From Trypanosoma brucei (lineage: Eukaryota): a DNA stretch of 64,000 nt. Shown piece after piece: positions 8,707-49,139 of the stretch. How positions within the stretch are numbered: the stretch's first letter is position 1; each line of letters starts with the position of its first letter. The notes beneath the pieces are model-generated. The model saw only the letters and a list, made by a program, of their open reading frames with translations. It searched no databases and was not told the DNA's origin. The translations under genes and the position numbers were made by a program. The stretch covers positions 576,001-640,000 of the forward strand of contig CP000066.1 in assembly GCA_000002445.1 (NCBI GenBank), written 5' to 3'.

Positions 8707-9393
8707 TCATGAACTCTGCTTCATCCCACTATAATATGTCCTCCCAAAATACCCCTTTGGCCGAGCTTCGTAACGTGGTGCCAAGTTTTGTAGTGGCTGC
8801 ATCTCCATCTCTTTGTATGGACTACGCTTCACATCTTCCGCTGTTATTTCGTCCACAGTCCAATCCCTGGGTCTCTCATCGTCCCTGTGTAGCAAATGGT
8901 CGTTCTGTTCAATTGCGTCAATTTGTGATTGCTCTGTTACACCATATTCTCCTAACGTCTTTTGTGGGTCCAATTCTTTCCCATCGATAGCAAGATGAAA
9001 GGACGAAACACAAAGATAGGGAGACTGATTCTCAACGAGAACAAGATCCTTTACTTGTGCAATAGTACTGTCTTTCGGAGCCATAATCTGAACAACCTGC
9101 ATACGCTGCTCCCAGCCAGATGTAACCCAGGTAAATATTTTGAACCTTATTCTTAATGGAATTAGGTGCTGCACCCTCGGGTCGTCAGTTACTGCCCGCC
9201 AATAGTGCCTGTCAGTATCATGAAGAATGGACTCTAAGCTCCCCGAATAAAAGCGCGTATCTCCAGGTGTCGCTGCTCGGATGGGTCCAGGATATGTCGT
9301 GGACTCTTCAAACCGTTTTCGGGCTTCAAACGCCTCCTGCTGGTAGTGTCCAAGAAGTCCTGCCTTCAACAGAGAAAGGGCGCCGCGCCTCAT
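8707..9393 (-). CDS. Hypothetical protein with possible ubiquitin-like fold; first gene of PTU-A
   Basis: 228-aa ATG ORF. The segment VVQIMAPKDSTIAQVKDLVLVENQ...LAIDGKELDPQKTLGEYGVTEQSQI looks like a ubiquitin-like beta-grasp pattern. It is the gene closest to the divergent strand switch. Confidence 0.6.
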   Translation of the reverse strand: MRRGALSLLKAGLLGHYQQEAFEARKRFEESTTYPGPIRAATPGDTRFYSGSLESILHDTDRHYWRAVTDDPRVQHLIPLRIRFKIFTWVTSGWEQRMQVVQIMAPKDSTIAQVKDLVLVENQSPYLCVSSFHLAIDGKELDPQKTLGEYGVTEQSQIDAIEQNDHLLHRDDERPRDWTVDEITAEDVKRSPYKEMEMQPLQNLAPRYEARPKGYFGRTYYSGMKQSS

Positions 9394-9510
9394 CTGCCGG
9401 CAGACAGCCCGATAACAAACTTTTGTGAAAGCGAGTGAAAATTAAAAAAGGCAGGTTTTTTCTTTTTAATGAGACACAGCGGTATATTGCAAGGTGTAAG
9501 CAATCCCCTA

Positions 9511-9521
9511 CCCCCCCCCCC
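9511..9521 (-). promoter_or_regulatory. G11 tract (C11 on the plus strand) 118 nt upstream of the first PTU-A start codon
   Basis: Counted directly: c at 9511-9521, preceded by cccc-ta. G-runs on the transcribed strand have been described at T. brucei divergent SSRs. Confidence 0.5.
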
Positions 9522-10379
9522 ATCTTAACAGGTGGAGTGCGCAGCTATATACACGCACACATATGTGCATATCCATGCCCGAAAAAGGCAAATAATCCTA
9601 GAGTCGCGGGCGCGCACGAAGAAACAGGTCTGGAAGCTTCCAAAACAACGTGCCAGTAGACAGCATACAATAGAGCAACAAAACGATAGCAGACAACTCT
9701 ACACGTTGTCTTCAAGGAAGGTTTCCACACTTCTGCAAAGCAGACAAGAGGAAATCGAAAGTGACAGGACCGAAAAGGGTTAATAAACCCAAAACACCAG
9801 TACAGCCAGCCCACCCACTGTCCGCCAAAACGGGACCACTGTCTAATGAAATTTAGACATCTGCAGACCCTCAGAAAACTACGGCCCCAAATTCCTCAGT
9901 AGTAGATGCGACCTTTTATCCCCGAAATAAATTTAAAAAGTGGAGGATAGCGCATACAATACTTACCATTTCCCCCAGCCAAACTTCCCGATGCGAAAGT
10001 CTGAGGACCCGCAGGGAACGGCACTGCACTCTGTCCTCTTTCTCAAATTGAAGGACGGAACAAGATGTTAGTAGACAGAATGATAGTTGTCCGGTTCTGT
10101 GGCTTTTCGGGAAACCGATAAATGACATTATTGAAGGAATGGCAGGATGATTTGAAAAATCGACCGTAAAAAAAAAAGAAAGAAACTACTGAGACATCTG
10201 GCGTTCGAAAGCTGGCCATCTCGGAACGAACGCAAGGCAGTGCGACTATACAGATGTCGGGGTGCTGCCACTAAACCTAAGAAACGCTACAGCATCTGCG
10301 AAAAGAAAGGGAATGAAAAGGCCAGAACTGTTAGCCCTCATGCCAAAGGTTGCGGTTGCCCCTAGAAACATCTTAGCTT

Positions 10380-11520
10380 AGGGGGGCCAAGCTTCGGTAC
10401 TGCACTCAACCGCCATCAGCCACAGCTGCATATGTTTTGTTGGTTATTTAAGCCTAGTGGTGCGTGTCGCAAAGCCCTTTTAGGCTTCCAGCTTCCATTG
10501 CCTGGGATATGCCCCTTATTTCTGAGAAGCATGGCGCGAGTCTGGTAACATTCCCAAATAATCAACAACGGCAAGACGACGTGCACAACACCCGTCTGCT
10601 GAGCGAGAGTGTGATTATAATAAAGAGGGCGGGCCAAATAACTCTGCTTGTGGAATCGCCCCCATGGAAGCCTCCTAGGGTGCCAGCGTCCCTCCAAGGT
10701 CGACCCGTTCTACGTTTGTTGTTTTTTTTTTCCTGGTTGGCAGCCGTGATTTTAGTTGCGTTTTCACATACACTGAACGGCGGCAGTGCAAGTGCAATGG
10801 CCAAGCGTCCGGATACACACAACTCTGTTTAATTACTTACAATCACCGTTCATGCAATACCGTTTTGTTTTTTTTTTGTGGGGAGAGGGTAACGGCCAAC
10901 AGTGACTCGAAGACGCAGCGCATGTTTGCACTTGCCTATCACAGTTTGCGCGTGTTTTGGTGCTGCCCGCGACACTCCATTTGCCTTGTCCGACAGTTCC
11001 TTGAACAAACTAGGCGTTTGGGGGCGAGATATTCTCAGGACGGTCCCTTCTAGCATGCAAGATTGCCCGTCCAAGCTTGACGCCGCGCTGGTGCAGCTTT
11101 CCCCTCCCACGCGCGCCGCCATTTCCGGGGTTTCAATCCTGTAGGTGGAGGTGACCTTCCGCTACACTCGTCCAAGAGTCCGGTGCAAATCTGAGCGGGT
11201 TTCTGTGGGGCCGTTGGGCCCGCCGCCGCTATGTTTGGTTCACTGCCGGGAGGAAAGTGCCCCCCTCCCCTGTTGCGGGTGTTCGGTGGCCTTCGGGTCA
11301 GTAGTGCGAACTTCCCACCCGGGCTTTGGCGTGTTCCCCTGTTGTTGTCTTGACCGGGGAGGTTACGCTCCTCTGTGTGCGTGCGGTTGCCATTCCAATC
11401 TTTGTTTGAAGGCGAAGATCTGCCGCGGCCACTTCGCGATCCGCTGCTGCAATGGAAGTGAGAGTGGAAGATATTCTTAGCAATGATGTGGTCTTTCGCT
11501 GCCCCTCTTAGTACCACCTT
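10380..11520. other. GC-rich, ORF-poor, hairpin-rich block inside the divergent SSR (candidate structured ncRNA, promoter element or gene/retroelement relic)
   Basis: Hand counts give 40/60 G+C for 11221-11280 and 38/60 for 11281-11340, whereas other spacers are AT-rich. It contains only mutually overlapping R/G/P-rich ORFs on both strands. Local helices include ggacgg(11038-11043)/ccgtcc(11067-11072) and the 11277-11320 helix with a c(uucg)g tetraloop hairpin ggcc-ttcg-ggtc at 11288-11299. Confidence 0.4.
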
Positions 11521-11790
11521 CCTATTATGTTTTTTTTACCGCTATCAAAGACACGTTCTTCAATTGTCACGTCACATACGAAACTGTGTTTTTCGTGCGC
11601 GTGCACACGCACGCATGTAAAAGCTGAGTTTGCTGACATTGTAATGCATACACTTTTTTATTACACTATTTCCAGACGATGCATCCCAAAATAGAAACGT
11701 TTGATCGCGTGGCTGGTTAGTTGTTGATTGGGGCGATTTTGTGCTTCACGACGCTTCTTGTTATTTTTTATTTGTATGGCTATTGTGTGA

Positions 11791-11852
11791 TTCTTTCTCA
11801 CTCTTTTTCCCTTTTTTTCTTTGTTTTCCCTGTCACTTATTCTTACGAACAG
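11791..11852 (+). promoter_or_regulatory. Polypyrimidine tract plus AG: candidate SL trans-splice acceptor for the Clp1-like gene
   Basis: The sequence ttctttctcactctttttccctttttttctttgttttccctgtcacttattcttacgaacag ends with AG at 11851-11852, just before the ATG at 11858. Confidence 0.45.
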
Positions 11853-11857
11853 GGGGT

Positions 11858-13183
11858 ATGTCCGCCATAGAACAGGCTAACTTTCGCCTACAAGCAGGTT
11901 CCGAGTTAGTGGTTGTAGTGCCCTACAGCACCGAGCGTTGTTCCGCTACCTTAAAAGTGGTGTCTGGGGCCGGTGGCTTGGAGCCGCGGGTGGATGTGCT
12001 TGGCGCCCCAGTTATTGTAGATGTATCGTACAATCTTCCTCCTGGAATCACCTTTACAGTCTTTACATGGAGCAACGCTAACATTCGAATTGAAGGATCA
12101 AAACAACTCGTTCAGAACTGTTTTCGCTCAACAACCCATCCATTTGCCCGTTCCATTGTTGAGTACCACTGCTTAATTCATAACGCTCGTCTACTTGCTG
12201 ACAAACAGGGTTTGTTTGGACCGATGGTCCTTATATGCGGGCAAAATGACACTGAGAAGCATGCAATATCTAGGACTCTTAGCAGCTATGCCGCAAGAAC
12301 AGGATGGGCCCCTCAATTTGTTGATCTTGATTGTGGGATGGGTCAGTTATTAAGCACTCCGGGAACTGTTGCAGCATGTGTAAGTGAGTGTCCGATGACA
12401 TTAGACGAGGATACCAGCACTGGTCCCCTTTCGGTTGCTTTTTTCGTAGGCTCGACCGAACCGCAGGTAAAAGGTGTTTCTGGGGAGTGGAACATGTTTG
12501 CCCCTTATGTTCATTATTGCCGTTTGCTACTATCATGTGTAAGTGAGCGAATAGCAAGACACAAGGGCGGGGCTGGAGGATCTAGTGGTGCAATCATCGT
12601 GCTGCCTGAACTGAGAGGGAGCAATGGACTGCTTTTCGTCGTGGATATCATTCGTCAGTTCAACATTTCGCATATTCTATGCGTGGGTGACGATTTCCTC
12701 TTTTGTGGACTCCACGAGAGGATACCGAGGTTGCGTGAACATATGGCTTCGCGTGTTGGTGGGGATATTCGTCTTGATAAACTATCGGGATCGCCTCACT
12801 TTCCTTCGCCAGACACTCGAACCGAACGTCTTTCCTCCATAATGGAAAGATATTTTTTTGGTGGTGGTGCAGTCGATCTCCAACCTTCAGAAATTAATAG
12901 GCGGTATGCAAGCATTGAGATACTTCTCTTAAAGGAAGCTAACGGACAGGCGGTAGTTTCCCCAGTAGAGCAGGATGCACTAGAGGGAGTTGTTGGGTGC
13001 GTGGGGTCCTTGTTTGAGTCATCCGCCATTCATGAGAAAGGTGCTCTTTCTCTTGCCCCATTTGCTCTCGCGAGGGTGCAGGGGATCGACGCCAATGGAG
13101 TCAGCCTTCTTGTGAGCACGCACTCGGCAATTCCAGAGAGGCTAACCATGATCGTGGGAGCTTTCCGGTGGGTAACAAGTTAA
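11858..13183 (+). CDS. Clp1-like protein (pre-mRNA cleavage complex II / polynucleotide kinase family) with degenerate Walker A
   Basis: The ORF-track start at 11741 is GTG inside the poly-Y tract, and the first ATG is at 11858 (441 aa). GPMVLICGQNDTEKHAISRTLSSYAARTGWAPQFVDLDCGMGQLLSTPGTVAA aligns with recalled human CLP1 [52 protein letters not shown]. Confidence 0.8.
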   Translation: MSAIEQANFRLQAGSELVVVVPYSTERCSATLKVVSGAGGLEPRVDVLGAPVIVDVSYNLPPGITFTVFTWSNANIRIEGSKQLVQNCFRSTTHPFARSIVEYHCLIHNARLLADKQGLFGPMVLICGQNDTEKHAISRTLSSYAARTGWAPQFVDLDCGMGQLLSTPGTVAACVSECPMTLDEDTSTGPLSVAFFVGSTEPQVKGVSGEWNMFAPYVHYCRLLLSCVSERIARHKGGAGGSSGAIIVLPELRGSNGLLFVVDIIRQFNISHILCVGDDFLFCGLHERIPRLREHMASRVGGDIRLDKLSGSPHFPSPDTRTERLSSIMERYFFGGGAVDLQPSEINRRYASIEILLLKEANGQAVVSPVEQDALEGVVGCVGSLFESSAIHEKGALSLAPFALARVQGIDANGVSLLVSTHSAIPERLTMIVGAFRWVTS

Positions 13184-20231: not shown

Positions 20232-21682
20232 CCTGATTTACCTTTGTTTTTGTATCGTACTGTTTTGCCTTTAGGCAAAGGGTGTTGTGTGAAACGTGCA
20301 TCAAAGGTGTTCGACGTTCACTGGGGGTTCGAATGGGAGCAGCGCACAACATTGGGGAGTGTTTCCTATAATATTATTTACCCGTTGCGCGTTTCTTCTC
20401 AACTTCCCATTTTTTCTAGCTCCCTCCTCATTCCTTTCCCGGTGCGAAGGACTTTCGTTTCTAGTTGGCGGCCCCTTTTTAGTACACGGTGTAATTAGAG
20501 ACTGTAGACGTTGTGCGGTCGGCTTTTTCGTCAATTAGATTCCACTATGTGGAGTTAGCCATTTGTCGGTCGATATATAAACCTGCACGTGGAAATGTAA
20601 CGCTTTCTTTACTTTTGTGTGTTGCCGTTACTGGTAAACACATTATTCGAAACTTTATTTGTCCAGACGGTAATAGAGGAATGGGTGACAACCCACCCAT
20701 CAGAATTGAGGAATCAATGACGTGTTGCTGTTGCATCCCATTTGTGCTGTGTAAATGGACCGTAACATCTCTTTTGCCTAGCTACTTGAGCAGTCATAAC
20801 CTCTTGTTGTGAGCAGAAACACTTGCGGGTAACACCGATCCGCCTCACACTGTGGCGTGCAATTATTAGTCACCGTCTCATCTCCGCCTTCTTTCTGGAG
20901 GAGCAGCAGCAGCAGAGAGAGAGAGAGAAAAGCAGGAGGCGGGAATTACTAAAGTTGCTTGGGTGATTTTTAGCTTTGGTGCCACTGTAGATCCGTTGTG
21001 TTGCTGCCTTTCTTCAGTTTCCGATGACATAACTGGAAGTACACTGCTGAACTTGTGCTGGCACGACTACCGTTTTCTTTGTTATTGTTGGAGGAGGGGA
21101 ATGATCATAGGCTGTACCTCAGCTTTATCCTTTGGGAGTGGAGAGGGATAACAATATCTATCTTATCAGGGAGAATTGGTACCTGTGATTTTGTGGACTG
21201 TCACAGACTCTGCAGTCAAGTGTTCTTACTACTCTACTCGTGACAAATATCATGCTGGCAATGGCACTAGGCCCTTATGGTCGCTGCGAGCCCGTGTGAG
21301 TAGGTTCGTTTGTTTAAGTGCCTGAACGAACGTTGTTCGTTTGACTAAACAAATGTGCGTTGGTGGGTTTTCGATGCGTTTGTTAACAACGTGTCGTACA
21401 CGAACAGCGACTGTTCAGTTGTTGTTGTTTTTGAGTGCTACAGACCCCCAGATTTTTGGTGTGGAGAGTCTCCTGGCAAGGTTTCTCACGCAGAGGAGGT
21501 CGGTCTCCGCTCCTCCCCATTTTTTCCCCCTCCTTTTCGCAGCTGATTGAACAAAGCACCGCTGTATTACGGCATTTTAGTGGGTAGCAAGTAGCCGCTA
21601 TCCTTGCCCAACAATTTTAAAGTTTCATAGTGTTCTGGAAGAAAAAAAACATAGAAGGTGTTGGCACCAATAGCTATACAGA

Positions 21683-38433: not shown

Positions 38434-39702
<1,269 letters not shown>

Positions 39703-41330
39703 GGTGTCAAATATGCCCTCCTTTTCAGCATTGTTGGTAATGAAAGGGTGCAGTAAAGAAAAAAAAACGAAATAAAATCAAACAAAAACTAAAAAAATAA
39801 AAAAGGCAAACGTAACACAAGAAGAGGAAAATAAAACAAGAGGGTAATGAAAGAAAACAAAAGAGAGTTTGGGATGAAATGAGTGTGGATGAACGTTGTG
39901 ACGAAAGAAGAGCATGAAAAGGGGAAATTAAGAGTAAGTAAAGTGTAAGTGTTTGTAGGAAGAAAAAAGGGGGTGCGTTAGGAGCTGGTGTAGATATGTG
40001 ATGTTTGTGTTTGTGGCGTGAAATACAGGACTGATACTTTTTTTTTACTTTTTTTGATCTCTCTCTTTGTGTTTGTGTGTGTGTGTGTATGGTTTTTTTT
40101 TTCTTCCTTCTTGTGTGGTGTGTGTTATAACTGTTGCGTTTGTCCTTGCTTGTGTATTTACCATTTCATGTGCATTTTCCACCCACCCCCTCATTTATTC
40201 CTGATATATTTCCCTTATCTACTTTTTCGATTCCGTTCCTGCCACCACGTCACGTTACCGCCATCCAACCAACCACTTTTTCAATTTTTCGTGTGTTTTA
40301 TATGAATTAAATGCATGTAGGCTTTCATGTGCAGTAATTCCTCTTGTCATTAAACGACAACACACGGAGCCACGGACGCGTAACATTTCGTTTTTTTTTT
40401 CTTGTTCTTATTGTTTGGAGGAGAGTTTCATCATTTATTGACTCTTTTCATAATTCCCTTGCAATATGAATGTATGTATTTATATATATAATATATATGT
40501 TTACTTGTGTTTCTGTGTGGGTATGTTTTTTTCCTTCTTTCTTGGAGCTTCAGATGTGATGATGCTAATGATCATGGTCAGCACAATTATAAGTGTTGCT
40601 ATTTTCTATTTTTTTTTCTTTCATTTGATTTTTCTCCAACATTTTTTTCTTTTTATTTAACTATTCCGTGCGGCGCGTCGATATGCCTTGAGTAATTAAC
40701 TGATTGGCTCCCTGTGTTTTATTTTGTTTGCTTGGATGTGTGGAAGAGCGATGGCAGCAGCAGAAGCAGGAAATAAAAGAAAGAGGAAGTAAAAAAACAA
40801 AAAGGAGGCAATGGGAGAGAAAGTATATTATAACAGCAGCAACAAAATGAAAAAAAAAAAGAAGGTATATATATACATTGATTAAACAGAAATTCAGGAC
40901 AAAACAAACGAAAATAAAATAAAACAGATATCTCTTCACTGGCTCACCACTTCGTTTGTTATTTTACCAACAAATCCCGCTGGGCGTGTGACATGTGCAG
41001 TTATCCTTACGTCTGTGAAACCGTTATATTACCACTACTACTCTTCTTGCTCTTGTGTTTCTTGTTTCTTTTTAATGTTTTTTTTTCCTCTTTCACTTCA
41101 CTTCACTTGCATGGCACTGCAGCGAACATTAGACTTTTTTTTTGTTTTCTTCCCTTGTTGGCGTTTTTGGCGTTGCTGTTTTCTTTTCTTTTTTTGAGGG
41201 GGGTGGGGGTATTATTATTGTTATTATTATTACTATCATTATTTATTCACTGCTATTTGCGTTTCTCCCGGTCAGACCGATTGAGATGCTCATATATCTT
41301 CCTTTTGATTGTTTTCATTTCCTTTTTGTT

Positions 41331-41385
41331 GATGATGATGATGATGATGTTTTTGATTTGTTTTGTTTTGTTTTGTTTTGTTTTG
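41331..41385. repeat. (GAT)6 followed by (TTTTG)5 microsatellites
   Basis: Read directly: GAT units at 41331-41348 and TTTTG units at 41361-41385. Confidence 0.9.
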
Positions 41386-41807
41386 TGCCCACCAGCACCT
41401 CACTGTCAGTTGTTCACACTTTTCCGCTACCTTTTTTTTTTTGCCGTGCAGGTCTCCAATAATATAAAGAAATATATACGTTTGTACTGAACAAATGATG
41501 ACCTCTTGCATTGGGAAATGAGTGAAAATGCACCGGGTTGTAACGCAAACGCAGCGATGTCCTCGTCCGTTACCTACTCTTTTTTTTTTTTCGTTTCTTC
41601 ATCACTTTTGTTTTTCTTCCTTCCTCTTGTGTCAGTTTCCTCCCTTCCTGTATCGCAAAGTGAAGGCTTTTTCCCCCTTTTTTGTTTGGTTTGGTTTCCT
41701 TCGCTTTCACCCCAACCACTGTGTTAGTTACAAACTGTAAAGTTACGCAAAGAAGTACACACATATATATATATACGCGCATAGTGACGGTTTTGAAGCG
41801 TAAAGAA

Positions 41808-42815
41808 ATGAAAGAAGTTAAAGGGGAAAATGAGTTTTTAAGCTGCAATGTGGAACTGTCAGAAGGTGTTGAAGATATTGCTGATGCCTTAAAACTTTGG
41901 GAGGATCAATTATATGCAGTAGAGCCACTTCTTGCAATATCGCTCAAGCTTCAACACCTCCAAGACACCACTCGCGGCATTGTTGCATCACTTGCCACTT
42001 CCAAAAAGAAATTACTGCAATCCACAAGATGCCACAAATATAAGCGTCAATATTTACTAAAAATGGAAGACACACCAAAGAAAGAAACAGCGTTATCGGA
42101 TTTTTCTTCACCCGATCCAATTGATGAATATGTGCGGCTGCATAAATGCAAGAGGGCGAGGGATGTAAATGTAAATGTAAATGCAAATGCAAATACGGAT
42201 GCGGGTGATGTTTCGTTGAGTGTTACCGCTGAGGAACATCAGACATGTGTGGAGGCGCTTCTTCGATGGGTTGATGAATCCATGCCATCGGTTGCGGAAC
42301 CTCATCTCACAGCCTCACGGAAGAAATTAGTCGCTCTCCTCACAAAAGGGGAATCACATGGAAAAGCAAAACCAACTAAAGAAACGCTCAGTAATGCTGA
42401 TGCATTTTGTAGTAAGCATTGGGCATATTATGCGGAGCAGCTGCATGCCGCACACAATGATGAATATGCGGCACTTAGGCGGGTGTGTGCTACGGATATC
42501 GGTGAGAGAATTCGCTCTCAAATGAAGTGGGAACAGTCACAAAGCAATTCAGTTCATGTCGTCACGCCTGCTGCTTCTGCTGGTGGTCTTCAGAGAAGTT
42601 TCACGCAGTTGTTAGGCGCAAAGGATGCATTGGCGGATTGTCAAAAAGCTGTTACGGTTTTATTATCGCTTCTGGGTGGCGCACTTGATGAATACGATGA
42701 ACAAACGCACAACGTCATCAAACGCGAAGAGGCATTTTGGAACAACGTACGAATTGCTGAATGTGAAAGTGAAGCGTTACGTTCCTTGTCTCTTCGTGTC
42801 AAAAAGCATTGTTGA
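41808..42815 (+). CDS. Hypothetical protein (335 aa)
   Basis: The ORF-track start at 41682 is TTG in T-rich sequence, and the first ATG is at 41808 (MKEVKGENEF...). The sequence is non-repetitive except for a hexamer-encoded NVNVNANAN stretch. No family was recognised. Confidence 0.65.
   Translation: MKEVKGENEFLSCNVELSEGVEDIADALKLWEDQLYAVEPLLAISLKLQHLQDTTRGIVASLATSKKKLLQSTRCHKYKRQYLLKMEDTPKKETALSDFSSPDPIDEYVRLHKCKRARDVNVNVNANANTDAGDVSLSVTAEEHQTCVEALLRWVDESMPSVAEPHLTASRKKLVALLTKGESHGKAKPTKETLSNADAFCSKHWAYYAEQLHAAHNDEYAALRRVCATDIGERIRSQMKWEQSQSNSVHVVTPAASAGGLQRSFTQLLGAKDALADCQKAVTVLLSLLGGALDEYDEQTHNVIKREEAFWNNVRIAECESEALRSLSLRVKKHC
42163..42192 (+). repeat. In-frame hexanucleotide repeat (ATGTAA)3(ATGCAA)2 encoding NVNVNANAN
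   Basis: Read directly inside the CDS 41808-42815. Confidence 0.9.
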
Positions 42816-43536
42816 CTGCATCGTCTGTCATAAGTGCTTTTTCCCCCTTGTTTTAAAAAAAAAAAAAACGAGCATTGTCTCTACCTTGTATTACGTATGA
42901 TGCCTTTTTTTCCACTTCGTTTTTGTTGGTGTTTACCTTTTTTTCTTCCGTTATTTTTACCATTTTCCCTGTATTTTCTCTCTGTCTCTGTATCTGTTGT
43001 TGCTGTTTTGTTTTCGTTTTCGTTTTTGTTCTTTGCTTGGCTCCTTTTCATGATTGTGAAGACGAGACCTCCGACACGAGGTATCGAAGGTTATGACGAT
43101 TGTGCTGTTTAATTCTATGAATCCACATTACGTTGGAATTAATAAAACGGAACTTTCGCCTGGCGGTGGAGGGCGATGTGGACGCGTTTCTGCATCCTCC
43201 CGGGGGGGATCATATATTTTCAGTGACAAAAATGTCGACCCCTTGAAGGTGCTAAAAACTTCCTTTTTTATTTTTCTCTCTATTTTTTTTCTATTTGTTA
43301 TTTTTGTTATTGTTATTGTTGTTGTTGTTTTAGTCCTATAATTGGCGCGTGTTTCGCCTCATTTCATCATTCACACCATATCCTTTGTTGTTTTCATCTT
43401 TTCCCCCACACGTACTTTACATTTCTTTCCTCTTTTTTTTTTTTATTTTATTATTTTTTTCACCCTCTGCATGTGTATGGTTTGCATTGCGTGTGGGAAA
43501 AAAAATAATAAAATAAACTAAAATAAACAACAAAAG

Positions 43537-45351
43537 ATGGGTAAAACTAACACAAAAAAGCAGGAGGCTCGTGTTGCCCGCCTGCGTAGCCTTCCAAAGT
43601 CGGAGAGGCTCGTAAAGATTGCACGAATTAAAAAGCGTGAGGGAAGGATTCTCGACTCAGCAGAGAAACATGCCTTAAAGATGTCTTCCGAGTATGGTGA
43701 AATCATACGGCTTTGGGAGGTTCTCCGCACATCTGAGGGACAATCTAAAGAAGAGGAAGAGAAGGAAAAACAAAAAAAGAAAGGAAAGAACAAAAAAGGG
43801 GAGGATTCCACCGATGATGTGAAGCAGCAGAAACTCAGTCGATACAAACACAAATACCCAACAGTTGACAAACTGCTAAAAAAGATTGAGCCAAAATTCG
43901 ACACATATGTGAGGACGCCTCGTACAAGTCGTGTCATTCAGTCCATGATAAAGTACGGCTCAACTGAGCAGCTTGGGAAAATTGTTGGACTAATTTCTAG
44001 TGGATATGCGAACTACGCAACTGATGCGTATGGTCATTTTGTCGTCGTCGCATTACTTCGTCATGCACCGCATGATTTGTTTGATAAAATCCTGTCACTC
44101 ACCATTCCCGCCGTCCCCACGCTGATTTCGCATCGCTTCGGCATTGAGGTGATCCACAGCGCGTATAGCAGTAACCTTTGTACGGCTACGAACCGAAACC
44201 TTCTAATTTTAGCCGTGTTCAAGGACAACATTGCGCTCATGAAGCGGTGGAAAGGTTATCCCATTTTGGAGGATGTGTTAGCGCAAGAGGTGGAGCAGCG
44301 CAAGAGACTTCTTCCTAAACTCTTTGAATTGTGTGAAAAACTTGTGTCGCAAAAAAGTGCTGTGGATTTCCCATTTGTCCAGCGCTTAGCCGCTGCCTTT
44401 ATTCGAAACGGAACAAAACATGAAGTATCTGAGCTGTGTGACACACTTCGACCACATTTGGCGGTGCTGTGCACAATTCGCGAGGGAGCACCTCTTGCAT
44501 CACTTGCCTTTTCACTTACGGAGCCTAAAAAGCGAAAGGTTATTTTACGCGCCTTCTCTGAAAACCTTGGTGTACTCGTGGTGAGCAAATACAGTGCTCC
44601 CGTCATTGCGCGTCTATTTGATATTGTGTATGATGTGCAACTTCTCTGCAAATATGTGGTGAATGATGTGGTCTCGCATATTACACAACTTATCAACAGT
44701 CCCTTTGGACATCAAATTTTGTTACACCTTTTAACACCACATGACGAACGCAAAACTAAATTCCTCCTTCCCAACTGGTTCCAACATAACCTTTACTCCG
44801 TGGAGAATACGCGGTGGAATTGCCACACATGGCTCACACATGAGTACAAGGAAGAGGAAGTTGAGCTGTGTAGCAAAGACGCTGAGCAAACGCATTTGGC
44901 TGTGTTGCCAACTTTAATTAAAAAGTTCTTGGAAGTTCTGAGCAACTCCGAAGTGGCTTCAAAACTTAATAAACATTACGTGGGTCTCATTGCAAGGGAG
45001 GTGCTGCATGTTCATGAAAAGGAGCCAGCTTACCGGAAGGCACTGAAGCTTTCAGCGAATGATGTTCAAGTGCTGGAACGCTTATCGCTTTCACGTGGAA
45101 AGAAGGAACCACGACATGAAGAAGGCGGAAATTCTGTGGGGAAAATCACATCAGAGGTACAAAACAAAACGAAAGGGCGGAGGTTGGAACGGCCGCAAAT
45201 GCAAAAACCCGCCGAGACTCCCCGAGTTGTTAAAAAGATGATGAAAAGTAGCGGTGTTGAGAGATCTCGCAAGGAAGGAACTAAAGTGGAAACTGTGAGC
45301 CATGCGGTGAGTACACTCAAGAAGAAAAAGAAGGTTCTCCCCAAGAAATAA
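43537..45351 (+). CDS. Pumilio-repeat protein of the nucleolar Puf-A/PUF6/PUM3 type
   Basis: 604 aa with basic N- and C-termini (MGKTNTKKQEARVARLR..., ...KKKKKVLPKK). It has PUF-like repeats (SRVIQSMIKYGSTEQLGKIV, DAYGHFVVVALLRH, HRFGIEVIHSAY, KYSAPVIARLF, SPFGHQILLHLL). It may correspond to one of the nucleolar trypanosome PUFs, but I cannot say which. Confidence 0.82.
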   Translation: MGKTNTKKQEARVARLRSLPKSERLVKIARIKKREGRILDSAEKHALKMSSEYGEIIRLWEVLRTSEGQSKEEEEKEKQKKKGKNKKGEDSTDDVKQQKLSRYKHKYPTVDKLLKKIEPKFDTYVRTPRTSRVIQSMIKYGSTEQLGKIVGLISSGYANYATDAYGHFVVVALLRHAPHDLFDKILSLTIPAVPTLISHRFGIEVIHSAYSSNLCTATNRNLLILAVFKDNIALMKRWKGYPILEDVLAQEVEQRKRLLPKLFELCEKLVSQKSAVDFPFVQRLAAAFIRNGTKHEVSELCDTLRPHLAVLCTIREGAPLASLAFSLTEPKKRKVILRAFSENLGVLVVSKYSAPVIARLFDIVYDVQLLCKYVVNDVVSHITQLINSPFGHQILLHLLTPHDERKTKFLLPNWFQHNLYSVENTRWNCHTWLTHEYKEEEVELCSKDAEQTHLAVLPTLIKKFLEVLSNSEVASKLNKHYVGLIAREVLHVHEKEPAYRKALKLSANDVQVLERLSLSRGKKEPRHEEGGNSVGKITSEVQNKTKGRRLERPQMQKPAETPRVVKKMMKSSGVERSRKEGTKVETVSHAVSTLKKKKKVLPKK

Positions 45352-45864
45352 CGAACTGTTTTTTTTTCCTGCTTTGTTTACGCGGGCGAAGAATAAATGT
45401 CACAATGGTGTGAAATGGGGCGGGGGAGGGGAACAGAAGCCCTTCGTTCTTTCCCTTCCTTTTCAAGTTAGCAGTTGGATTACTTCAGAAGGCACAAAAC
45501 AAAAAAAAAAAGAAAAACACATAGCAGGGCAAAAAAAAAAATTTTAAAAAGGAGGAGGACGAGGAGGAGGGAGGAAAGAGGACAAAGTTACGCAGCACAA
45601 ATGCAACGTATGCGGTTCCGCTATTTAGAGGAGAGAAAAGTTAAATTGATGTTAGTGTTAGTGCGCCACGCGTCGTCATGCGCACCAAAACATAATTCTT
45701 CGTTTCAGGTGTATGCGTTCGAACTCACCATTACCTCCTCCCTTCCTCCCCCCGCCCCACGCAACCGACCCGAATGACTCTCTTAATTCGTTATTCGCAC
45801 CGTTAAAATCATTTTTTTTTTGTTTTCACAATGTGCAACGCATCCATTCCTTTTCACCCACCCA

Positions 45865-45876
45865 CCCCCCCCCCCC
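45865..45876 (+). repeat. C12 homopolymer
   Basis: Counted directly (45865-45876), preceded by cacccaccca. Confidence 0.95.
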
Positions 45877-46085
45877 ATTCCCTATCACTTAACATAAGTT
45901 TCGAATAAAAATAATAATAATAATAATAACAAAATAAAATAAAAATAAAGTGAACGAAAAGTTGCGGTTTGATGTGTGTCCCAACCCATTCTCTTGAATG
46001 TGCAATATTTTCCCCTCCTCTCTTCTCGTATCTCTTCTTTTAATGTTTACTCCCGCATTGTTTGTTTATGTGTGTTTGATTGAGT

Positions 46086-46099
46086 GGGGGGGGGGGGGG
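46086..46099 (+). repeat. G14 homopolymer
   Basis: Counted directly (46086-46099). It lies 210 nt downstream of the C12 run and 336 nt upstream of the ATG at 46435. Confidence 0.95.
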
Positions 46100-46434
46100 C
46101 CCACAGTGAAGGAAACACGGAGGAAAAACCTTTAGAAACCAAACAAACAAATAAATAATAACACCAACATCAGGGGAAATAATACCGGAGCGAAGAAGTA
46201 CTGAATTCAAAGTGATATATAGAATAGAAAGAAAAATCAATCAAAAAAAAGGAGTATTAAACACGAATAGAAGGTACGCAACGAGTAGTCTCCTCATATC
46301 TGATTGCATACCCACACTCTGTTATTATCACTCCCTTCTATTTTATTTTTTATTTTGTTGTTGTTAGAAGAAAGAAAAAAAAACTGAGAAACGAAAAAAA
46401 AAAGGTTGTGGTGGTGGTACTGTTGAAGAAATAA

Positions 46435-46815
46435 ATGCCACCAAAGAAGAGCAGCAATGCCAAAGCCGGCAAATCCGAAGCTGTCAGCGAAGTGAGCAAA
46501 ATTAATATGGATTATGTGCAATATGAACTTCCATCACCTGATATGGCTGTTGTGGAAAAATATATTGAAACGGCCAAAGCAAAAGCTCGCGCCTCATCTG
46601 CGCAACGAAGGCGGGAAGGCCGAAAGAGTTGTTGGAGGGCGGCGTCACCAAACATGTCACTTTGCAAAAAAATTCGTGGAGTGTTTTGTCCAAATATCTT
46701 TCAAACTCTGAAAGGACCTGTGAGGGATTTTGTGTTGGGATTTGTCGTTACTTTCTTCGTCATGTATGTATTTTTTGTGGCGTTGTATTTCGAAAAGGCG
46801 CCTTCCAAGCGATAG
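46435..46815 (+). CDS. Small tail-anchored membrane protein (126 aa), hypothetical
   Basis: ATG ORF on the PTU strand with a polar/basic N-terminal part and a single C-terminal TM segment (RDFVLGFVVTFFVMYVFFVALYFEKA). Confidence 0.5.
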   Translation: MPPKKSSNAKAGKSEAVSEVSKINMDYVQYELPSPDMAVVEKYIETAKAKARASSAQRRREGRKSCWRAASPNMSLCKKIRGVFCPNIFQTLKGPVRDFVLGFVVTFFVMYVFFVALYFEKAPSKR

Positions 46816-47107
46816 GCGGTAAAATAGATCTCAAAAACAAAAGAAAGAAAGAAAAAAAGAGGGACTGAAGAAATGAAGATGAAGATGAGAGAAATGAGTG
46901 AAGAAGTTACGAGGGGAGGGAGAGAAAGAAAAAGAAAAAGGGAGGGAAGGAGGGAAAGAAATAATTTCAAAATAAAACAAAAAAAAAGGGAAGTGACCAC
47001 AAATAGACGGCAACGCAAACGTTTTACGGTGTCGTATAATTTGGTAACCATCTTTAATGAAAAGTGTCTTCATTAGGCGAGGGACACCGTTCGTTTTTTG
47101 TTTTCTT

Positions 47108-47175
47108 TATATATACATATATATATATATTTATTTATTTATTTATTTATATTTATATATCCTCTCTCTCTCTCT
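47108..47175. repeat. Compound microsatellite (TA)n-(TTTA)n-(CT)n
   Basis: Read directly: tatatatacatatatatatatatttatttatttatttatttatatttatatatcctctctctctctctg. Confidence 0.9.
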
Positions 47176-47856
47176 GTGTGTTCCTCTTCCTTTCCCTATC
47201 CCTTTCTCTCTAATTCGCTAAATCTTCATTTATCTTCTTTCCATCCCCTCCCTTTCCACATCCTTTGATTTGTTTTGGAGGATTTTCGCACATCTTGTCG
47301 AGTTTCTACCGATTATTGTGGTGGTGAATTCTCGAATGCATCAAATGGTACAAATATTTCTTTCTGTTGCTTTTGTGTTCTCCCCTCTTTTTTTCTTTTA
47401 GGCGTTGTTATTACCGCTACGGTTGGTATTTTTGTACTTTCTTCGCATTCTTTTGGCATGTGTTGTCTTTGTATTTATTTAAATCTTGTTCTTGTTGTCG
47501 TTTTGCCTTCATACTCTTACAGTTCTAAACAGAAACAAACAAAAAAAATACCTTTACATCACTTTCCTTTACTTCCCTTTTACTTCATTTCTTTCTTTCG
47601 GCTTTCCTCTACCCATCTGCTGTTTGATTTATTTATTTATTGGTGCTTATGCGTCACGTAAATGTGCACATGAATAAATAAATAAATGAATGAATTGTTC
47701 TTTGCTTTATTAGTTCAAGGGAGAAAAAATAAATAAATAATAAATAGTAGTAACAGCATCACCAACAGTAGCGGCATAACAAAGAAAATTTCAAAAAAAA
47801 AGAAATAGAGGTGTGAGTTTATTTGCATCATTTATAAATATTAATATCAAATATAA

Positions 47857-48054
47857 ATGCCTGAGACGCCACAGCGAAATGGATTCAAGCGTCCAAGTCT
47901 TGCAGCTAAATTATTCGGTGATGCGGATGTCGTTTATTCGAGAGAAACAACATCTCGACTAACGGATTTTGCGGGAACATTTTTAGTCGGATTTTTCGCG
48001 GTTTACTTCACAATTGCGGGATATTTACTTTATCGTGAGGCAGCGCTCTCGTAA
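47857..48054 (+). CDS. Very small tail-anchored protein (65 aa), speculative
   Basis: ATG ORF on the PTU strand. It is the only non-low-complexity ORF in a 2.3-kb spacer. Its C-terminal TM segment TDFAGTFLVGFFAVYFTIAGYLLYREA resembles that of the 46435 ORF. Confidence 0.35.
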   Translation: MPETPQRNGFKRPSLAAKLFGDADVVYSRETTSRLTDFAGTFLVGFFAVYFTIAGYLLYREAALS

Positions 48055-49054
48055 AAAATAAAAAATAATATAATAATAATAAATAAATAAATAAATAAAG
48101 GAGAAGAAGAGAAAAATAAAATAAAATAAAACGTGTCATGGCGATGTTGTTGGATATTATTATTATTACTATTTATTCCAACAATGAAGATGCACCCATA
48201 ACGATCAGTTGAAGGGAAGGAAAGTGTGAAAAATCAATCATTACACTACCTATTTAGACATAGGTTTGGAGGGGAGAGATCTTTTTTTAAAAAAAACAAA
48301 AAAAAAATCTCCCCGGGTCCCTTTTGTGTTCTTCCTTTTATACGTGCGGTGTGTTGCGCTGAGAACTCACTGAGAAGTGCGTGACTGCGTATTTAAAAAT
48401 AAAAATAAAAAAAACACCGTCACCTTCCCTCGGTATTTAGTTAATCATTATATTGCCATACCTGTTTTTATTTTATTTTATTTACTTACTCACTTTGATC
48501 ACAATGTAAGTTCTCGGGCCGGTGCCGTTTTTTTTTTGCAATTTTTGGTGTTATGATCTTCCATTCGTCCCTCTTTTTTATCTCCTTTTTTTTTCCTTTT
48601 TTTTTCCACTGCTTTCTCCGCCTACACACTTTTAAAAATGAAATAAAAATTGTGCAGCATTTTCGCGCAGAAAGTCAATGTGCTCCCTTTATAAAAGCTA
48701 AGAGAATGGGGGAGTGTTGCGTACGCTCATGCGTTTTTGTGAGGGTTAATGAGTTTTCATCCTTTCAAAACAAAAACACAAAAGGGAGAAAATAACAGGG
48801 ACAAAGGGGGGGAAAAAAGTAGCAATGTTTTGTTTATTGATAATCCGCTAATTTATCTTAACTGCGTTACGGAATATATGATATATATTTGTGTGTGTAC
48901 GCGTGCATGTGAAATATCCAACACTCATTGCGTCATTTTGAAATTTATACCTTCTTTCTTTTTTGTTTTCCTTAAAATAATTCCGCTCCGCTTGGTTATT
49001 GCTCTGAAAGCTCAAGCGGCGCAGCGGGGGGGCGACTTTCCGTTGTTGTTGCTG

Positions 49055-49072
49055 TTATTATTATTATTATTA
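49055..49072. repeat. (TTA)6 microsatellite
   Basis: Read directly, preceded by (GTT)3. Confidence 0.9.
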
Positions 49073-49139
49073 TTGCTATTGTTGTGTGTTGTTCTTTTTT
49101 TTTAAAAATAAATAAATAAATAAAAGGAAACAGCATTGT

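What the first reader, a model, noticed from the sequence alone, without database searches (positions are those of the whole stretch)
10380..11520. GC-rich, ORF-poor, helix-rich 1.1-kb block in the middle of the divergent strand-switch region
Seen in the sequence: spacers elsewhere in the window are AT-rich and homopolymeric, but this block is strongly GC-rich (hand counts 40/60 and 38/60 G+C for 11221-11280 and 11281-11340). It contains only mutually overlapping R/G/P-rich ORFs on both strands, as expected from stop-codon paucity rather than coding. It is full of local complementarity. Examples are ggacgg/ccgtcc (11038-11043 with 11067-11072, loop containing the palindrome gcatgc), and a composite helix at 11277-11320 (gggtg-ttcg ... 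cgaa ... caccc) that encloses a textbook c(uucg)g tetraloop hairpin, ggcc-ttcg-ggtc, at 11288-11299. Strings such as gggaggaaagtgcccccc (11248-11266) and cctgtaggtgg / gtcagtagtgcg superficially recall RNase P/MRP CR-I and SRP RNA segments, but I could not build either consensus structure. Established knowledge: pol II initiation in T. brucei occurs in such divergent SSRs, and sequence-specific promoter elements have only recently begun to be defined. Inference: this is a candidate structured ncRNA, a promoter or nucleosome-excluding element, or a relic of a GC-rich gene or retroelement.
Basis: partly seen in the sequence, partly recalled or inferred. Interest (0 to 1): 0.65.

Follow-up and report, generated by a model that had tools for sequence, protein, structure and literature searches.

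The report
GC-rich core of a trypanosome promoter region
The GC-rich block is the middle of an already mapped region where Trypanosoma brucei RNA polymerase II starts transcribing two gene arrays in opposite directions; it is not a structured RNA gene or a dead gene, so it is an ordinary, known kind of feature.

Summary
The window is T. brucei TREU927 chromosome 3, 576,001-640,000. This follows from three published splice sites that match to the base. The block lies between Tb927.3.2260 (minus strand) and Tb927.3.2270/Clp1 (plus strand). Kolev et al. 2010 list these as the first genes of two divergent Pol II units.

The composition claim is right but narrower than stated. Only 11040-11450 is strongly GC-rich: 61.8% GC, 12% A, the richest 400 bp of the 64 kb. 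The stretch 10380-11039 is 50.5% GC. The quoted hairpins exist, but folding is no better than dinucleotide shuffles (z +1.35 and +0.40). Rfam finds nothing.

The overlapping ORFs are frameshifted in T. b. gambiense and T. equiperdum and have no homologues. There is no Pr77 retroposon hallmark.

Published maps place two transcripts in the strand-switch region. Tb3.NT.24 runs 10295 to 9600 on the minus strand. Tb3.NT.25 covers 11291-11718 on the plus strand at 0.04 copies per cell, and its 5' end lies inside the GC core.

G/T-rich 10-mers switch strand at about 10300-10400. The core evolves fastest among brucei-group genomes. Even so, a GC peak sits at the same relative position in T. melophagium, T. 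rangeli and T. cruzi, without sequence similarity.

Verdict: this is the bidirectional Pol II start region, and the GC core is most likely its rightward start zone.

The parts
8707..9393 (-). CDS of Tb927.3.2260 (ubiquitin-like domain protein), first annotated gene of the leftward Pol II unit. Its splice-acceptor site is at 9419.
   Evidence: ORF. Pfam ubiquitin E=1.2e-6. Kolev Table S12 gives SAS 585419 and a 5'UTR of 26, and Table S14 lists 'Tb927.3.2260 -> Tb927.3.1510, -, Divergent'. CT at 9420-9421 is AG on the minus strand.
9600..10295 (-). Tb3.NT.24: published trans-spliced, polyadenylated 'novel transcript' (695 nt, 0.48 RNA per cell). It is the true first processed transcript of the leftward unit.
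   Evidence: Kolev Tables S7 and S12 give 586295 -> 585600 on the minus strand, with the SAS at 586295. CT at 10296-10297 is AG on the minus strand. It has 1.29 substitutions per 100 bp against 3.3 in the non-coding DNA to its right (p=0.003).
10296..10330 (-). Splice-acceptor AG and polypyrimidine tract (read on the minus strand) of Tb3.NT.24. Leftward transcription must therefore start to the right of this point, inside the finding's block.
   Evidence: The sequence gaaaagaaagggaatgaaaagg on plus is pyrimidine-rich on minus. SAS coordinate. The consequence for the start site is inference.
10300..10700 (.). Strand-asymmetry switch zone. The cumulative (G+T)-(A+C) skew reaches its minimum for the whole 64-kb window at 10424.
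   Evidence: G/T-rich 10-mers (at least 9 of 10) number 8 plus / 47 minus in 9394-10295 and 116 plus / 12 minus in 10296-11857.
10380..11520 (.). The block as reported. It is the non-coding centre of the divergent Pol II start region and the 5' part of the rightward start region (79 G/T-rich 10-mers on plus against 11 on minus).
10715..10731 (+). T-tract (tttgttgtttttttttt), length-variable between subspecies. A second tract lies at 10863-10877.
   Evidence: indels at 10721 and 10867. Two of the few exact matches to the published coding-strand 10-mers lie here.
11040..11450 (+). GC-rich, A-poor core (61.8% GC, 12% A). Proposed start zone and core promoter of the rightward unit. It is the fastest-evolving segment among T. 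brucei-group genomes.
   Evidence: 5.6 substitutions per 100 bp against 0.6-0.7 in the coding sequences; p=0.004 against the flanks. No Pfam, Rfam or homologue hit.
11291..11718 (+). Tb3.NT.25: published low-abundance polyadenylated transcript (427 nt, 0.04 RNA per cell). Read here as the cut-off 5' leader of the primary rightward transcript. Its 5' end lies within the ggcc-ttcg-ggtc hairpin and is not preceded by AG.
   Evidence: Kolev Table S7 gives 587291 -> 587718 on the plus strand. It is absent from the SAS table between Tb3.NT.24 and Tb927.3.2270. The transcript class is described. Sequence context.
11760..11852 (+). Polypyrimidine tract and AG (11851-11852) of the first rightward splice-acceptor site (SAS at 11853).
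   Evidence: Kolev Table S12 gives SAS 587853 and a 5'UTR of 5. Sequence.
11858..13183 (+). CDS of Tb927.3.2270 (Clp1/Grc3-type polynucleotide kinase), first gene of the rightward Pol II unit.
   Evidence: Pfam CLP1_N and CLP1_P; 100% identical to the T. b. gambiense DAL972 protein. Table S14 lists 'Tb927.3.2270 -> Tb927.3.2490, +, Divergent'.

Best explanation
The block is the promoter-containing centre of a known divergent RNA polymerase II transcription start region on T. brucei chromosome 3, between Tb927.3.2260 and Tb927.3.2270.

Proposed working:
- Pol II initiates in both directions within the roughly 1.56-kb gap (10296-11852) that separates the first splice-acceptor site of each direction.
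- Rightward initiation occurs in or around the GC-rich, A-poor core (11040-11450).
- The nascent RNA runs into the first polypyrimidine tract and AG (SAS at 11853), where the spliced leader is added to the Clp1 mRNA.
- The cut-off upstream leader is polyadenylated near 11718 and survives at about 0.04 copies per cell as Tb3.NT.25, with its 5' end at 11291.
- Leftward initiation must lie to the right of 10330, because Tb3.NT.24 is trans-spliced at 10295. It is probably near the skew switch at about 10350-10450, or in the C-rich left flank of the core.

The core works through composition (a G+C island with T>A on the sense strand, flanked by T-tracts) rather than through a conserved sequence or an RNA fold. 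In this it resembles a dispersed, TATA-less, CpG-island-type promoter.

Shown: the location, the published transcript ends, the composition, the strand-bias switch, the absence of coding or RNA-family signal, and the positional GC peak in other species.

Inferred: that 11291 is, or lies close to, a true 5'-triphosphate start; that the GC core itself recruits Pol II or organises H2A.Z chromatin; and where leftward initiation occurs.
For: - Coordinates. Three published splice sites fall exactly after AG when 576,000 is subtracted: 585419 -> 9419, 586295 -> 10295, 587853 -> 11853.
- Published start-region call. Kolev Table S14 lists Tb927.3.2260->1510 (-) and Tb927.3.2270->2490 (+) as 'Divergent' Pol II units. 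It was derived from 5'-triphosphate-enriched RNA-seq, which was enriched 'at every divergent transcription unit'.
- Transcripts in the region. Tb3.NT.24 (10295->9600, minus) and Tb3.NT.25 (11291->11718, plus) are in Table S7. [quoted passage not shown]
- NT.25 ends 135 nt upstream of the Clp1 SAS. From established knowledge, that spacing is what splicing-coupled polyadenylation would give.
- Strand asymmetry. The whole-window keto-skew minimum is at 10424. G/T-rich 10-mers are 79:11 (plus:minus) in the block and 8:47 to its left. This matches the coding-strand GT bias at the 5' end of start regions reported by Wedel et al. 2017.
- The GC core is the top 400-bp window of the 64 kb.
- Other species. 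The syntenic strand-switch regions of T. melophagium, T. rangeli and T. cruzi each carry a 200-bp GC peak (67%, 68.5%, 56%; z 3.7, 3.1, 2.2; rank 1st, about 2nd and 6th of about 650 windows). The peaks lie 170-450 bp upstream of the Clp1 ATG, with no sequence similarity.
- Not coding, not a known RNA family, not retroposon-derived.
Against: - No raw 5'-triphosphate, Pol II, H2A.Z or MNase track was available, so no start site in the block is directly seen here.
- The 5' end of Tb3.NT.25 could be a coverage boundary or a processing or decay end. Its absence from the SAS table is weak evidence, because the stored tables are truncated and other NT transcripts also lack entries.
- Exact matches to the published coding-strand 10-mers are not enriched in the block: 4 on plus and 2 on minus.
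- The core is G+C-rich rather than G+T-rich (GT fraction 56%).
- G/T-rich 10-mers in 10296-11039 favour the plus strand (54:8), which sits awkwardly with a leftward start far to the right.
- The core is the least conserved segment among subspecies. That is compatible with a composition-only element but also with no function.
- In Leptomonas the syntenic region has only a weak peak (58% per 100 bp). In Leishmania, start regions are reported as GC-poorer than the genome.
Confidence: 0.8

Rival explanations
1. The GC island is a by-product, not a working element. Open, transcription-initiating chromatin (R-loops, exposed single strands, recombination with GC-biased repair) drives fast, GC-biased sequence turnover at the start region. 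Pol II placement is set by chromatin or by other sequences.
For: - The core has the highest substitution density of the locus: 5.6 per 100 bp against 2.5 in flanking non-coding DNA (p=0.004) and 0.6-0.7 in the coding sequences.
- There is no sequence conservation between species although the composition recurs.
- Wedel et al. found that all 12 start-region fragments they tested could drive transcription, which argues against unique elements.
- R-loops are reported in strand-switch regions.
Against: - The peak keeps the same position relative to Clp1 in four lineages whose strand-switch regions differ four-fold in length.
- A mapped RNA 5' end lies inside it.
- The direction of substitutions could not be polarised, because no alignable outgroup is available, so GC-biased turnover is untested.
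Confidence: 0.12
2. A structured non-coding RNA gene (RNase P/MRP-like, SRP-like, snoRNA or a new class) is encoded in 11040-11450.
For: - Local hairpins, including a UUCG tetraloop, are present.
- A discrete transcript, Tb3.NT.25, overlaps the right half of the core.
Against: - No Rfam family reaches threshold. The best sensitive hits are CRISPR-DR9 at E=3.1 and mir-2057 at E=8.1.
- Folding z-scores are +1.35 and +0.40 for the core and at most -1.05 in strength for single hairpins.
- The transcript is polyadenylated and present at 0.04 copies per cell.
- The core is the fastest-evolving segment.
- There are 0 compensatory pairs. One change breaks a G-C pair in the tetraloop stem and two convert C-G to U-G.
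- A 1-nt indel occurs at 11260.
- There is no homologous sequence in other trypanosomes.
Confidence: 0.03
3. The block is a relic of a GC-rich protein-coding gene or of an ingi/RIME/SIDER/DIRE retroposon. Such elements are reported to accumulate in strand-switch regions and carry the Pr77 Pol II promoter.
For: - The T. brucei strand-switch region is 2.46 kb against 0.62-0.97 kb in T. melophagium, T. rangeli and T. cruzi, so DNA has been gained.
- Long ORFs are open on both strands.
- The literature states that retroposons accumulate in strand-switch regions.
- In T. vivax a GC-rich kelch gene lies next to Clp1.
Against: - No Pfam domain is found in any ORF or in any of the six frames of 10296-11857.
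- The 155-aa minus ORF has 0 hits among 1.84 billion representative proteins. The 111-aa plus ORF has 0 hits in the 5.8-billion-protein index.
- The T. vivax kelch protein has no tblastn or tblastx match in the region.
- The L1Tc Pr77 sequence matches only by 7-8-nt words, while the same scan finds a degenerate Pr77 at 61449-61490.
- There is no copy of the block elsewhere in the window.
- The sense strand is A-poor, with no poly(A) tail.
- The short strand-switch regions of other species also have the GC peak, so the peak is not part of the gained DNA.
Confidence: 0.04

Closest known systems
T. brucei RNA polymerase II transcription start regions at divergent strand-switch regions (Siegel et al. 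2009; Kolev et al. 2010, PMC2936537)
   Same: This very region is listed as the start of two divergent Pol II units. It shows low-abundance polyadenylated transcripts next to the start, as described for such sites. It lies between the first splice-acceptor sites of the two directions.
   Different: Nothing of substance. The published start regions are defined by chromatin marks over several kb, whereas the block is only the 1.1-kb non-coding centre.
GT-rich dispersed Pol II promoters of T. brucei (Wedel et al. 2017, PMC5579346)
   Same: There is a strong excess of G/T-rich 10-mers on the coding strand at the 5' end of each direction, at least 6-fold as in their criterion: 79:11 in the block and 47:8, mirrored, to its left. 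There is no discrete conserved motif.
   Different: The published enriched 10-mers (G10, (GT)n, T-rich) are not enriched here: 4 against 2. The most striking part is G+C-rich and A-poor rather than G+T-rich.
Sequence-specific 75-bp PTU promoters (Cordon-Obras et al. 2022, Cell Rep 38:110221)
   Same: The concept is the same: two oppositely oriented core promoters inside a divergent strand-switch region, as summarised in PMC11796357.
   Different: The paper and its motif are not held in the library, so no sequence comparison was possible. Staneva et al. could not find those motifs under other Pol II peaks.
Vertebrate CpG-island promoters
   Same: Both are G+C-rich, TATA-less and give broad, divergent initiation with unstable promoter-proximal transcripts. 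Kolev et al. drew this analogy for the initiation pattern.
   Different: There is no CpG contrast: observed/expected CpG is 0.89 in the core against 0.91 in the window. The genes are polycistronic and trans-spliced. This is an analogy only, with no homology implied.
Pr77 internal Pol II promoter / HDV-like ribozyme of L1Tc/ingi-clade retroposons (PMC1874656, PMC4748587)
   Same: It is a GC-rich Pol II promoter reported to accumulate in strand-switch regions.
   Different: Tested and absent from the block.

Membership tests
Pol II divergent transcription start region (T. brucei) | Lies between two head-to-head polycistronic units, upstream of the first splice-acceptor site of each | tested here: met
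   Gene map. Published SAS at 10295 (minus) and 11853 (plus). Table S14 lists both units as 'Divergent'.
Pol II divergent transcription start region (T. brucei) | 5'-triphosphate RNA ends, and low-abundance SL-poor polyadenylated transcripts, at the site | tested here: inconclusive
   The published table names the units, and Tb3.NT.25 (5' end at 11291, no AG before it, 0.04 copies per cell) fits the class. Raw read tracks were not available.
Pol II divergent transcription start region (T. brucei) | Enrichment of H2A.Z/H2B.V, H4K10ac, H3K4me3, Pol II and SPARC | not testable with these tools
   No ChIP data are accessible. The supplements of PMC9566855 hold no coordinates for this locus.
GT-rich dispersed promoter (Wedel 2017) | [quoted passage not shown] | tested here: met
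   79 against 11 in 10380-11520. 116 against 12 in 10296-11857. Mirrored 8 against 47 in 9394-10295.
GT-rich dispersed promoter (Wedel 2017) | Presence of the published enriched 10-mers (Dataset EV1) | tested here: not met
   Only 4 plus and 2 minus exact matches in the block, which is the window's background density.
Sequence-specific PTU promoter (Cordon-Obras 2022) | Match to the published 75-bp promoter or its motifs | not testable with these tools
   The paper is not held.
Structured ncRNA (any Rfam family, including RNase P/MRP, SRP, snoRNA) | Covariance-model match at or near the gathering score | tested here: not met
   0 hits at gathering thresholds. The best sensitive hits have E=3.1 and 8.1, far below gathering.
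Structured ncRNA (any Rfam family, including RNase P/MRP, SRP, snoRNA) | Folding energy beyond composition, with conservation or covariation | tested here: not met
   z +1.35 and +0.40. 0 compensatory pairs. Highest substitution rate of the locus. No similarity in other species.
ingi/RIME/SIDER/DIRE retroposon | Pr77 hallmark at the 5' end, RT/endonuclease remnants, poly(A) tail, multiple copies | tested here: not met
   No Pr77. No Pfam domain in six frames. No other copy within the 64 kb. Copy number in the whole genome was not testable.
Protein-coding gene or pseudogene | ORF kept open in close relatives, with homologues or domains | tested here: not met
   A frameshift at 11260 breaks both long ORFs in two subspecies, and all 12 differences in the 10464-10832 ORF change the amino acid. 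No hits in Pfam or the protein databases.
CpG-island promoter (analogy only) | Local excess of CpG observed/expected over the surrounding genome | tested here: not met
   0.89 in the core against 0.91 in the window. Only G+C content is raised.

The most novel reading that the evidence does not exclude
A short G+C island, conserved in position but not in sequence, may be the ancestral core of bidirectional Pol II promoters at trypanosome divergent strand-switch regions. It would act through composition, by setting nucleosome or H2A.Z placement or DNA melting behaviour, much as CpG-island promoters do. In T. melophagium and T. rangeli it is C-rich on the left and G/T-rich on the right. In T. brucei, about 1.6 kb carrying a new transcript (Tb3.NT.24) has been inserted between the island and the leftward gene. 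The papers I could read describe GT-rich elements and poly(dA:dT) tracts, but I found no such G+C island described.
Probability: 0.3. Interest if true: 0.55.

Novelty: already known. Interest (0 to 1): 0.22.

Why it matters
Pol II promoters for protein-coding gene arrays in trypanosomes are still poorly defined. This locus adds nothing new in kind: it is a catalogued divergent start region, and the RNA that begins in the GC core is already in a published table.

The useful by-products are three:
- A clean single-base anatomy of one start region: splice sites, poly(A) sites, skew switch and GC core.
- A negative result that removes the ncRNA and pseudogene readings.
- A modest lead. A G+C peak recurs at the same relative position upstream of Clp1 in four Trypanosoma lineages despite complete sequence turnover and a four-fold difference in region length.

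If the peak holds genome-wide, it would give a simple compositional predictor of start sites and a defined 400-bp fragment to test in existing reporter assays.

Tried and rejected
- Rfam at gathering thresholds (whole window) and a sensitive scan of 9300-12000: nothing usable.
- tRNA scan: none.
- Folding of the core, of the quoted hairpins and of sliding windows on both strands: no excess structure.
- Pair counting for the tetraloop helix on three genomes: no compensatory change, but three sequences are too few to say more.
- Pfam on all ORFs of the strand-switch region and on six-frame translations. The first attempt with raw DNA references failed because of stop codons. It was repeated with X for stops and found nothing.
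- Exhaustive HMMER search with the 155-aa minus ORF (0 hits) and an indexed search with the 111-aa plus ORF (0 hits).
- Test of whether the T. vivax GC-rich kelch gene next to Clp1 is the ancestor of the block: no translated similarity. The T. vivax contig is not syntenic on the left and was dropped from the comparison.
- Pr77 retroposon hallmark: absent. The first script timed out.
- Self-BLAST of the block against the window: no repeats.
- G-quadruplex motifs: none in the block.
- CpG observed/expected: not raised.
- Exact published GT-rich 10-mers: not enriched.
- T. congolense syntenic region: the protein is not on record, so it could not be fetched.
- T. grayi contig: too short, with 190 bp upstream.
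- Cordon-Obras 2022: not held.
- Supplements of the SPARC and Wedel papers: no usable coordinates for this locus.
- Generality across other T. brucei strand-switch regions: could not be tested, because only this locus is reachable with the tools.
Full report
**Identity of the window**

The Clp1-type ORF at 11858-13183 is 100% identical in protein to T. b. gambiense DAL972 and T. equiperdum OVI. The neighbouring genes (succinyl-CoA ligase alpha, BRO1, a ubiquitin-like protein; Sec1/VPS33, DnaJ/zuotin, PACRG) are in the same order in T. melophagium, T. cruzi and T. rangeli.

Kolev et al. 2010 (PMC2936537, Tables S7, S12, S14) give splice-acceptor sites for this stretch of TREU927 chromosome 3:
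- 585419: Tb927.3.2260, 5'UTR 26.
- 586295: Tb3.NT.24.
- 587853: Tb927.3.2270, 5'UTR 5.

Subtracting 576,000 puts them at 9419, 10295 and 11853. Each then falls immediately after an AG on the right strand: CT at 9420-21 and at 10296-97 for the minus strand, AG at 11851-52 for the plus strand. Both start codons (9393 and 11858) are reproduced. The window is therefore Tb927 chr3:576,001-640,000.

**The observation**

The hand counts are correct: 40/60 and 38/60. The strongly GC-rich part is a 411-bp core, 11040-11450. It is 61.8% GC with only 12% A. It is the richest 400-bp window in the 64 kb (window mean 45.2%, sd 5.3%; intergenic mean 41.6%; coding 47.9%). The left 660 bp of the block is 50.5% GC.

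The ORFs are as described, overlapping on both strands.

The 'helix-rich' impression does not survive a control:
- The core folds no better than dinucleotide-preserving shuffles (z +1.35 on plus, +0.40 on minus).
- 120-nt sliding windows over the block give z between -1.3 and +2.0.
- The composite helix with the UUCG hairpin gives z -0.67, and 53 of 200 shuffles fold as well.

**Anatomy from published transcript maps**

Table S14 of Kolev et al. lists Tb927.3.2260->1510 (minus) and Tb927.3.2270->2490 (plus) as 'Divergent' Pol II units. The authors state that 5'-triphosphate reads were enriched at every divergent unit.

Two 'novel transcripts' lie inside the annotated strand-switch region:
- Tb3.NT.24: 586295->585600, minus strand, 695 nt, 0.48 RNA per cell. 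This is window 10295->9600. It is trans-spliced at 10295.
- Tb3.NT.25: 587291->587718, plus strand, 427 nt, 0.04 RNA per cell. This is window 11291->11718.

The gap free of processed transcripts is thus 10296-11852, and the finding's block is essentially that gap.

Tb3.NT.25 starts inside the GC core, in the stem of the 'textbook' hairpin. It is not preceded by AG. It is not in the splice-site table between NT.24 and Tb927.3.2270. It ends 135 nt before the Clp1 splice site.

Kolev et al. describe exactly such polyadenylated, SL-poor, low-abundance RNAs at initiation regions. They interpret them as remnants of the 5' end of primary Pol II transcripts.

**Strand asymmetry**

The cumulative (G+T)-(A+C) skew has its minimum for the entire window at 10424, on a plateau from 10300 to 10700. 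Counts of 10-mers with at least 9 G/T:

| Segment | Plus | Minus |
|---|---|---|
| 9394-10295 | 8 | 47 |
| 10296-11857 | 116 | 12 |
| The block, 10380-11520 | 79 | 11 |

This is the coding-strand GT bias that Wedel et al. 2017 reported for the 5' end of start regions. The specific 10-mers they list are not enriched here: 4 against 2. The core is G+C-rich and A-poor rather than G+T-rich.

**Comparison of genomes**

Substitutions per 100 bp among TREU927, T. equiperdum and T. b. gambiense:

| Segment | Substitutions per 100 bp |
|---|---|
| The two flanking coding sequences | 0.60 and 0.73 |
| Tb3.NT.24 body | 1.29 |
| 10296-11039 | 2.93 |
| GC core | 5.60 |
| 11451-11857 | 1.72 |

The core is significantly faster than its non-coding flanks (p=0.004). 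A 1-nt indel at 11260 frameshifts both long ORFs of the core in the other two genomes. The ORF that the gambiense annotation calls at 10510-10832 is frameshifted in T. equiperdum, and all 12 of its nucleotide differences change the amino acid.

The three substitutions in the 44-nt helix all hit one arm of the tetraloop stem. One breaks a G-C pair, two give G-U, and none is compensatory.

Outside the brucei group there is no detectable similarity in the strand-switch region. Yet the syntenic regions of three other species each hold a sharp GC peak 170-450 bp upstream of the Clp1 ATG:

| Species | Region length | 200-bp GC peak | z | Rank in its locus |
|---|---|---|---|---|
| T. melophagium | 619 bp | 67% | 3.7 | 1st |
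| T. rangeli | 661 bp | 68.5% | 3.1 | about 2nd |
| T. cruzi | about 970 bp | 56% | 2.2 | 6th of 657 |

Each peak is flanked by an A-rich tract on the left and a T-rich tract on the right. In T. melophagium and T. rangeli the island is C-rich on its left and G/T-rich on its right. A weak echo of this C-to-G flip occurs at about 11150-11200 in T. brucei.

For T. brucei, T. melophagium and T. rangeli, the chance that the top GC window falls in a region covering 4-5% of each locus is of the order of 1e-4. This is my arithmetic.

T. vivax is not informative. A kelch-domain ORF lies next to Clp1 there, and the left-hand synteny is broken. Leptomonas shows only a weak peak.

**Rivals**

Structured ncRNA: no Rfam hit, no excess folding, no conservation, no covariation, very low abundance and a poly(A) tail.

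Gene or retroelement relic:
- No Pfam domain in any ORF or frame.
- No homologue of the 155-aa or 111-aa ORF in 1.84 and 5.8 billion proteins.
- No translated similarity to the T. vivax kelch gene.
- No Pr77 hallmark, although the same scan picks up a degenerate Pr77 at 61449-61490.
- No second copy in the window.

The GC peak also exists in species whose strand-switch region is four times shorter. It is therefore not part of the DNA that T. brucei gained.

The rival I cannot dismiss is that the island is a passive consequence of initiation-associated mutation or repair rather than a working element. The high substitution rate fits it. The positional stability and the RNA 5' end inside the island argue against it.

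**Mechanism**

I read the block as a bidirectional, dispersed, TATA-less Pol II promoter region.
- Rightward initiation in or around the GC core yields a primary transcript.
- That transcript is trans-spliced at 11853.
- The discarded leader is polyadenylated at about 11718 and is seen as Tb3.NT.25.
- Leftward initiation must lie to the right of 10330 to feed the splice site of Tb3.NT.24.

Whether the core acts by excluding, positioning or destabilising nucleosomes, or by helping H2A.Z deposition, is inference from what is known of such start regions.

**Comparison with what is known, and novelty**

The locus meets the positional and transcript criteria of a T. brucei divergent start region, and it is itself listed as one. 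It meets the strand-bias criterion of GT-rich promoters but not the k-mer list. It cannot be compared with the Cordon-Obras promoter, because that paper is not held. It resembles CpG-island promoters in G+C content and divergent broad initiation, an analogy Kolev et al. made, but has no CpG contrast.

The feature is therefore already known in kind and in instance. The recurrent G+C island is a modest, untested lead. In the papers I could search, start regions are described as GT-rich (T. brucei), poly(dA:dT)-rich (T. cruzi core regions) or GC-poorer than the genome (Leishmania). I cannot claim that nobody has described a GC peak.

**Limits**

- No sequencing tracks, no full T. brucei genome and no T. 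congolense sequence were available.
- The supplementary tables used are partly truncated in storage.
- The reading of 11291 as a primary 5' end is inferred.

Noticed in passing
window 9600-10295 (minus strand): The published transcript Tb3.NT.24 fills the left part of the annotated strand-switch region. It varies much less between brucei-group genomes than the non-coding DNA to its right (1.29 against 3.3 substitutions per 100 bp, p=0.003; only 2 substitutions in 9600-10099). It carries short ORFs: 70 aa at 9916-10128, with a single change in gambiense, and 89 aa at 9545-9814, identical in all three. There is no room for it in the 0.6-1.0-kb regions of T. melophagium, T. rangeli and T. cruzi, so it looks like a lineage-specific, possibly functional transcript.
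   Followed up: partly
window 11040-11450: The GC core is a substitution hot spot among T. brucei-group genomes (5.6 per 100 bp, about 9 times the flanking coding sequences). TREU927 differs from both other genomes at about 20 sites. The cause (relaxed constraint, transcription-associated mutation, biased gene conversion or divergent haplotypes) was not resolved.
   Followed up: partly
window 9505-9522: A run of 12 C (G12 on the minus, sense strand of the leftward unit) forms the only G-quadruplex-type motif in the strand-switch region. It lies between the poly(A) site of Tb3.NT.24 and the splice site of Tb927.3.2260. The T. equiperdum assembly has an N-gap just beside it (window 9490-9510). 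G10 is the top coding-strand 10-mer in Wedel's list.
   Followed up: partly
window 61449-61490 (plus strand): A degenerate Pr77-like retroposon hallmark: 23 of 37 matches to the L1Tc Pr77 start plus an exact 14-mer GTGCCAGGGTCTAG (E=0.013). This suggests a SIDER/RIME/DIRE remnant between minus-strand genes.
   Followed up: no
window 39700-49100: A long AT-rich (31-41% GC), ORF-poor stretch within the plus-strand unit, with a very high density of T-rich 10-mers (53 plus-strand matches to the Wedel list in 40-44 kb). Published novel transcripts Tb3.NT.27 and Tb3.NT.28 map to 46046-47526 and 47714-49006, Tb3.NT.29 to 53961-54860, and Tb3.NT.26 to 20420-21451.
   Followed up: no
L002 4650-4973 (= window 10510-10832, plus strand): The T. 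b. gambiense annotation calls a 107-aa gene inside the strand-switch region. It is frameshifted in T. equiperdum, all 12 differences from TREU927 change the amino acid, and it has no Pfam hit. It is most likely a spurious gene model.
   Followed up: yes
L005 2316-3092 (minus strand), T. vivax Y486 contig CAEX01002004: A GC-rich kelch-repeat ORF (Kelch_3 E=1e-8), followed by a DnaJ gene, lies upstream of Clp1 in place of the ubiquitin-like/BRO1 genes. This is either a synteny break or an assembly join. The remaining 880-bp gap is T-rich and has no GC peak.
   Followed up: partly
L006 6001-7325, T. rangeli: Clp1 is called as two ORFs (294 aa and 124 aa), so there is a frameshift, a pseudogene or a sequencing error in that assembly.
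   Followed up: no
window 53540-55197: A convergent strand switch: plus-strand genes end at 53539 and minus-strand genes begin at 55198. The cumulative GC skew turns over here. Tb3.NT.29 lies in it.
   Followed up: no
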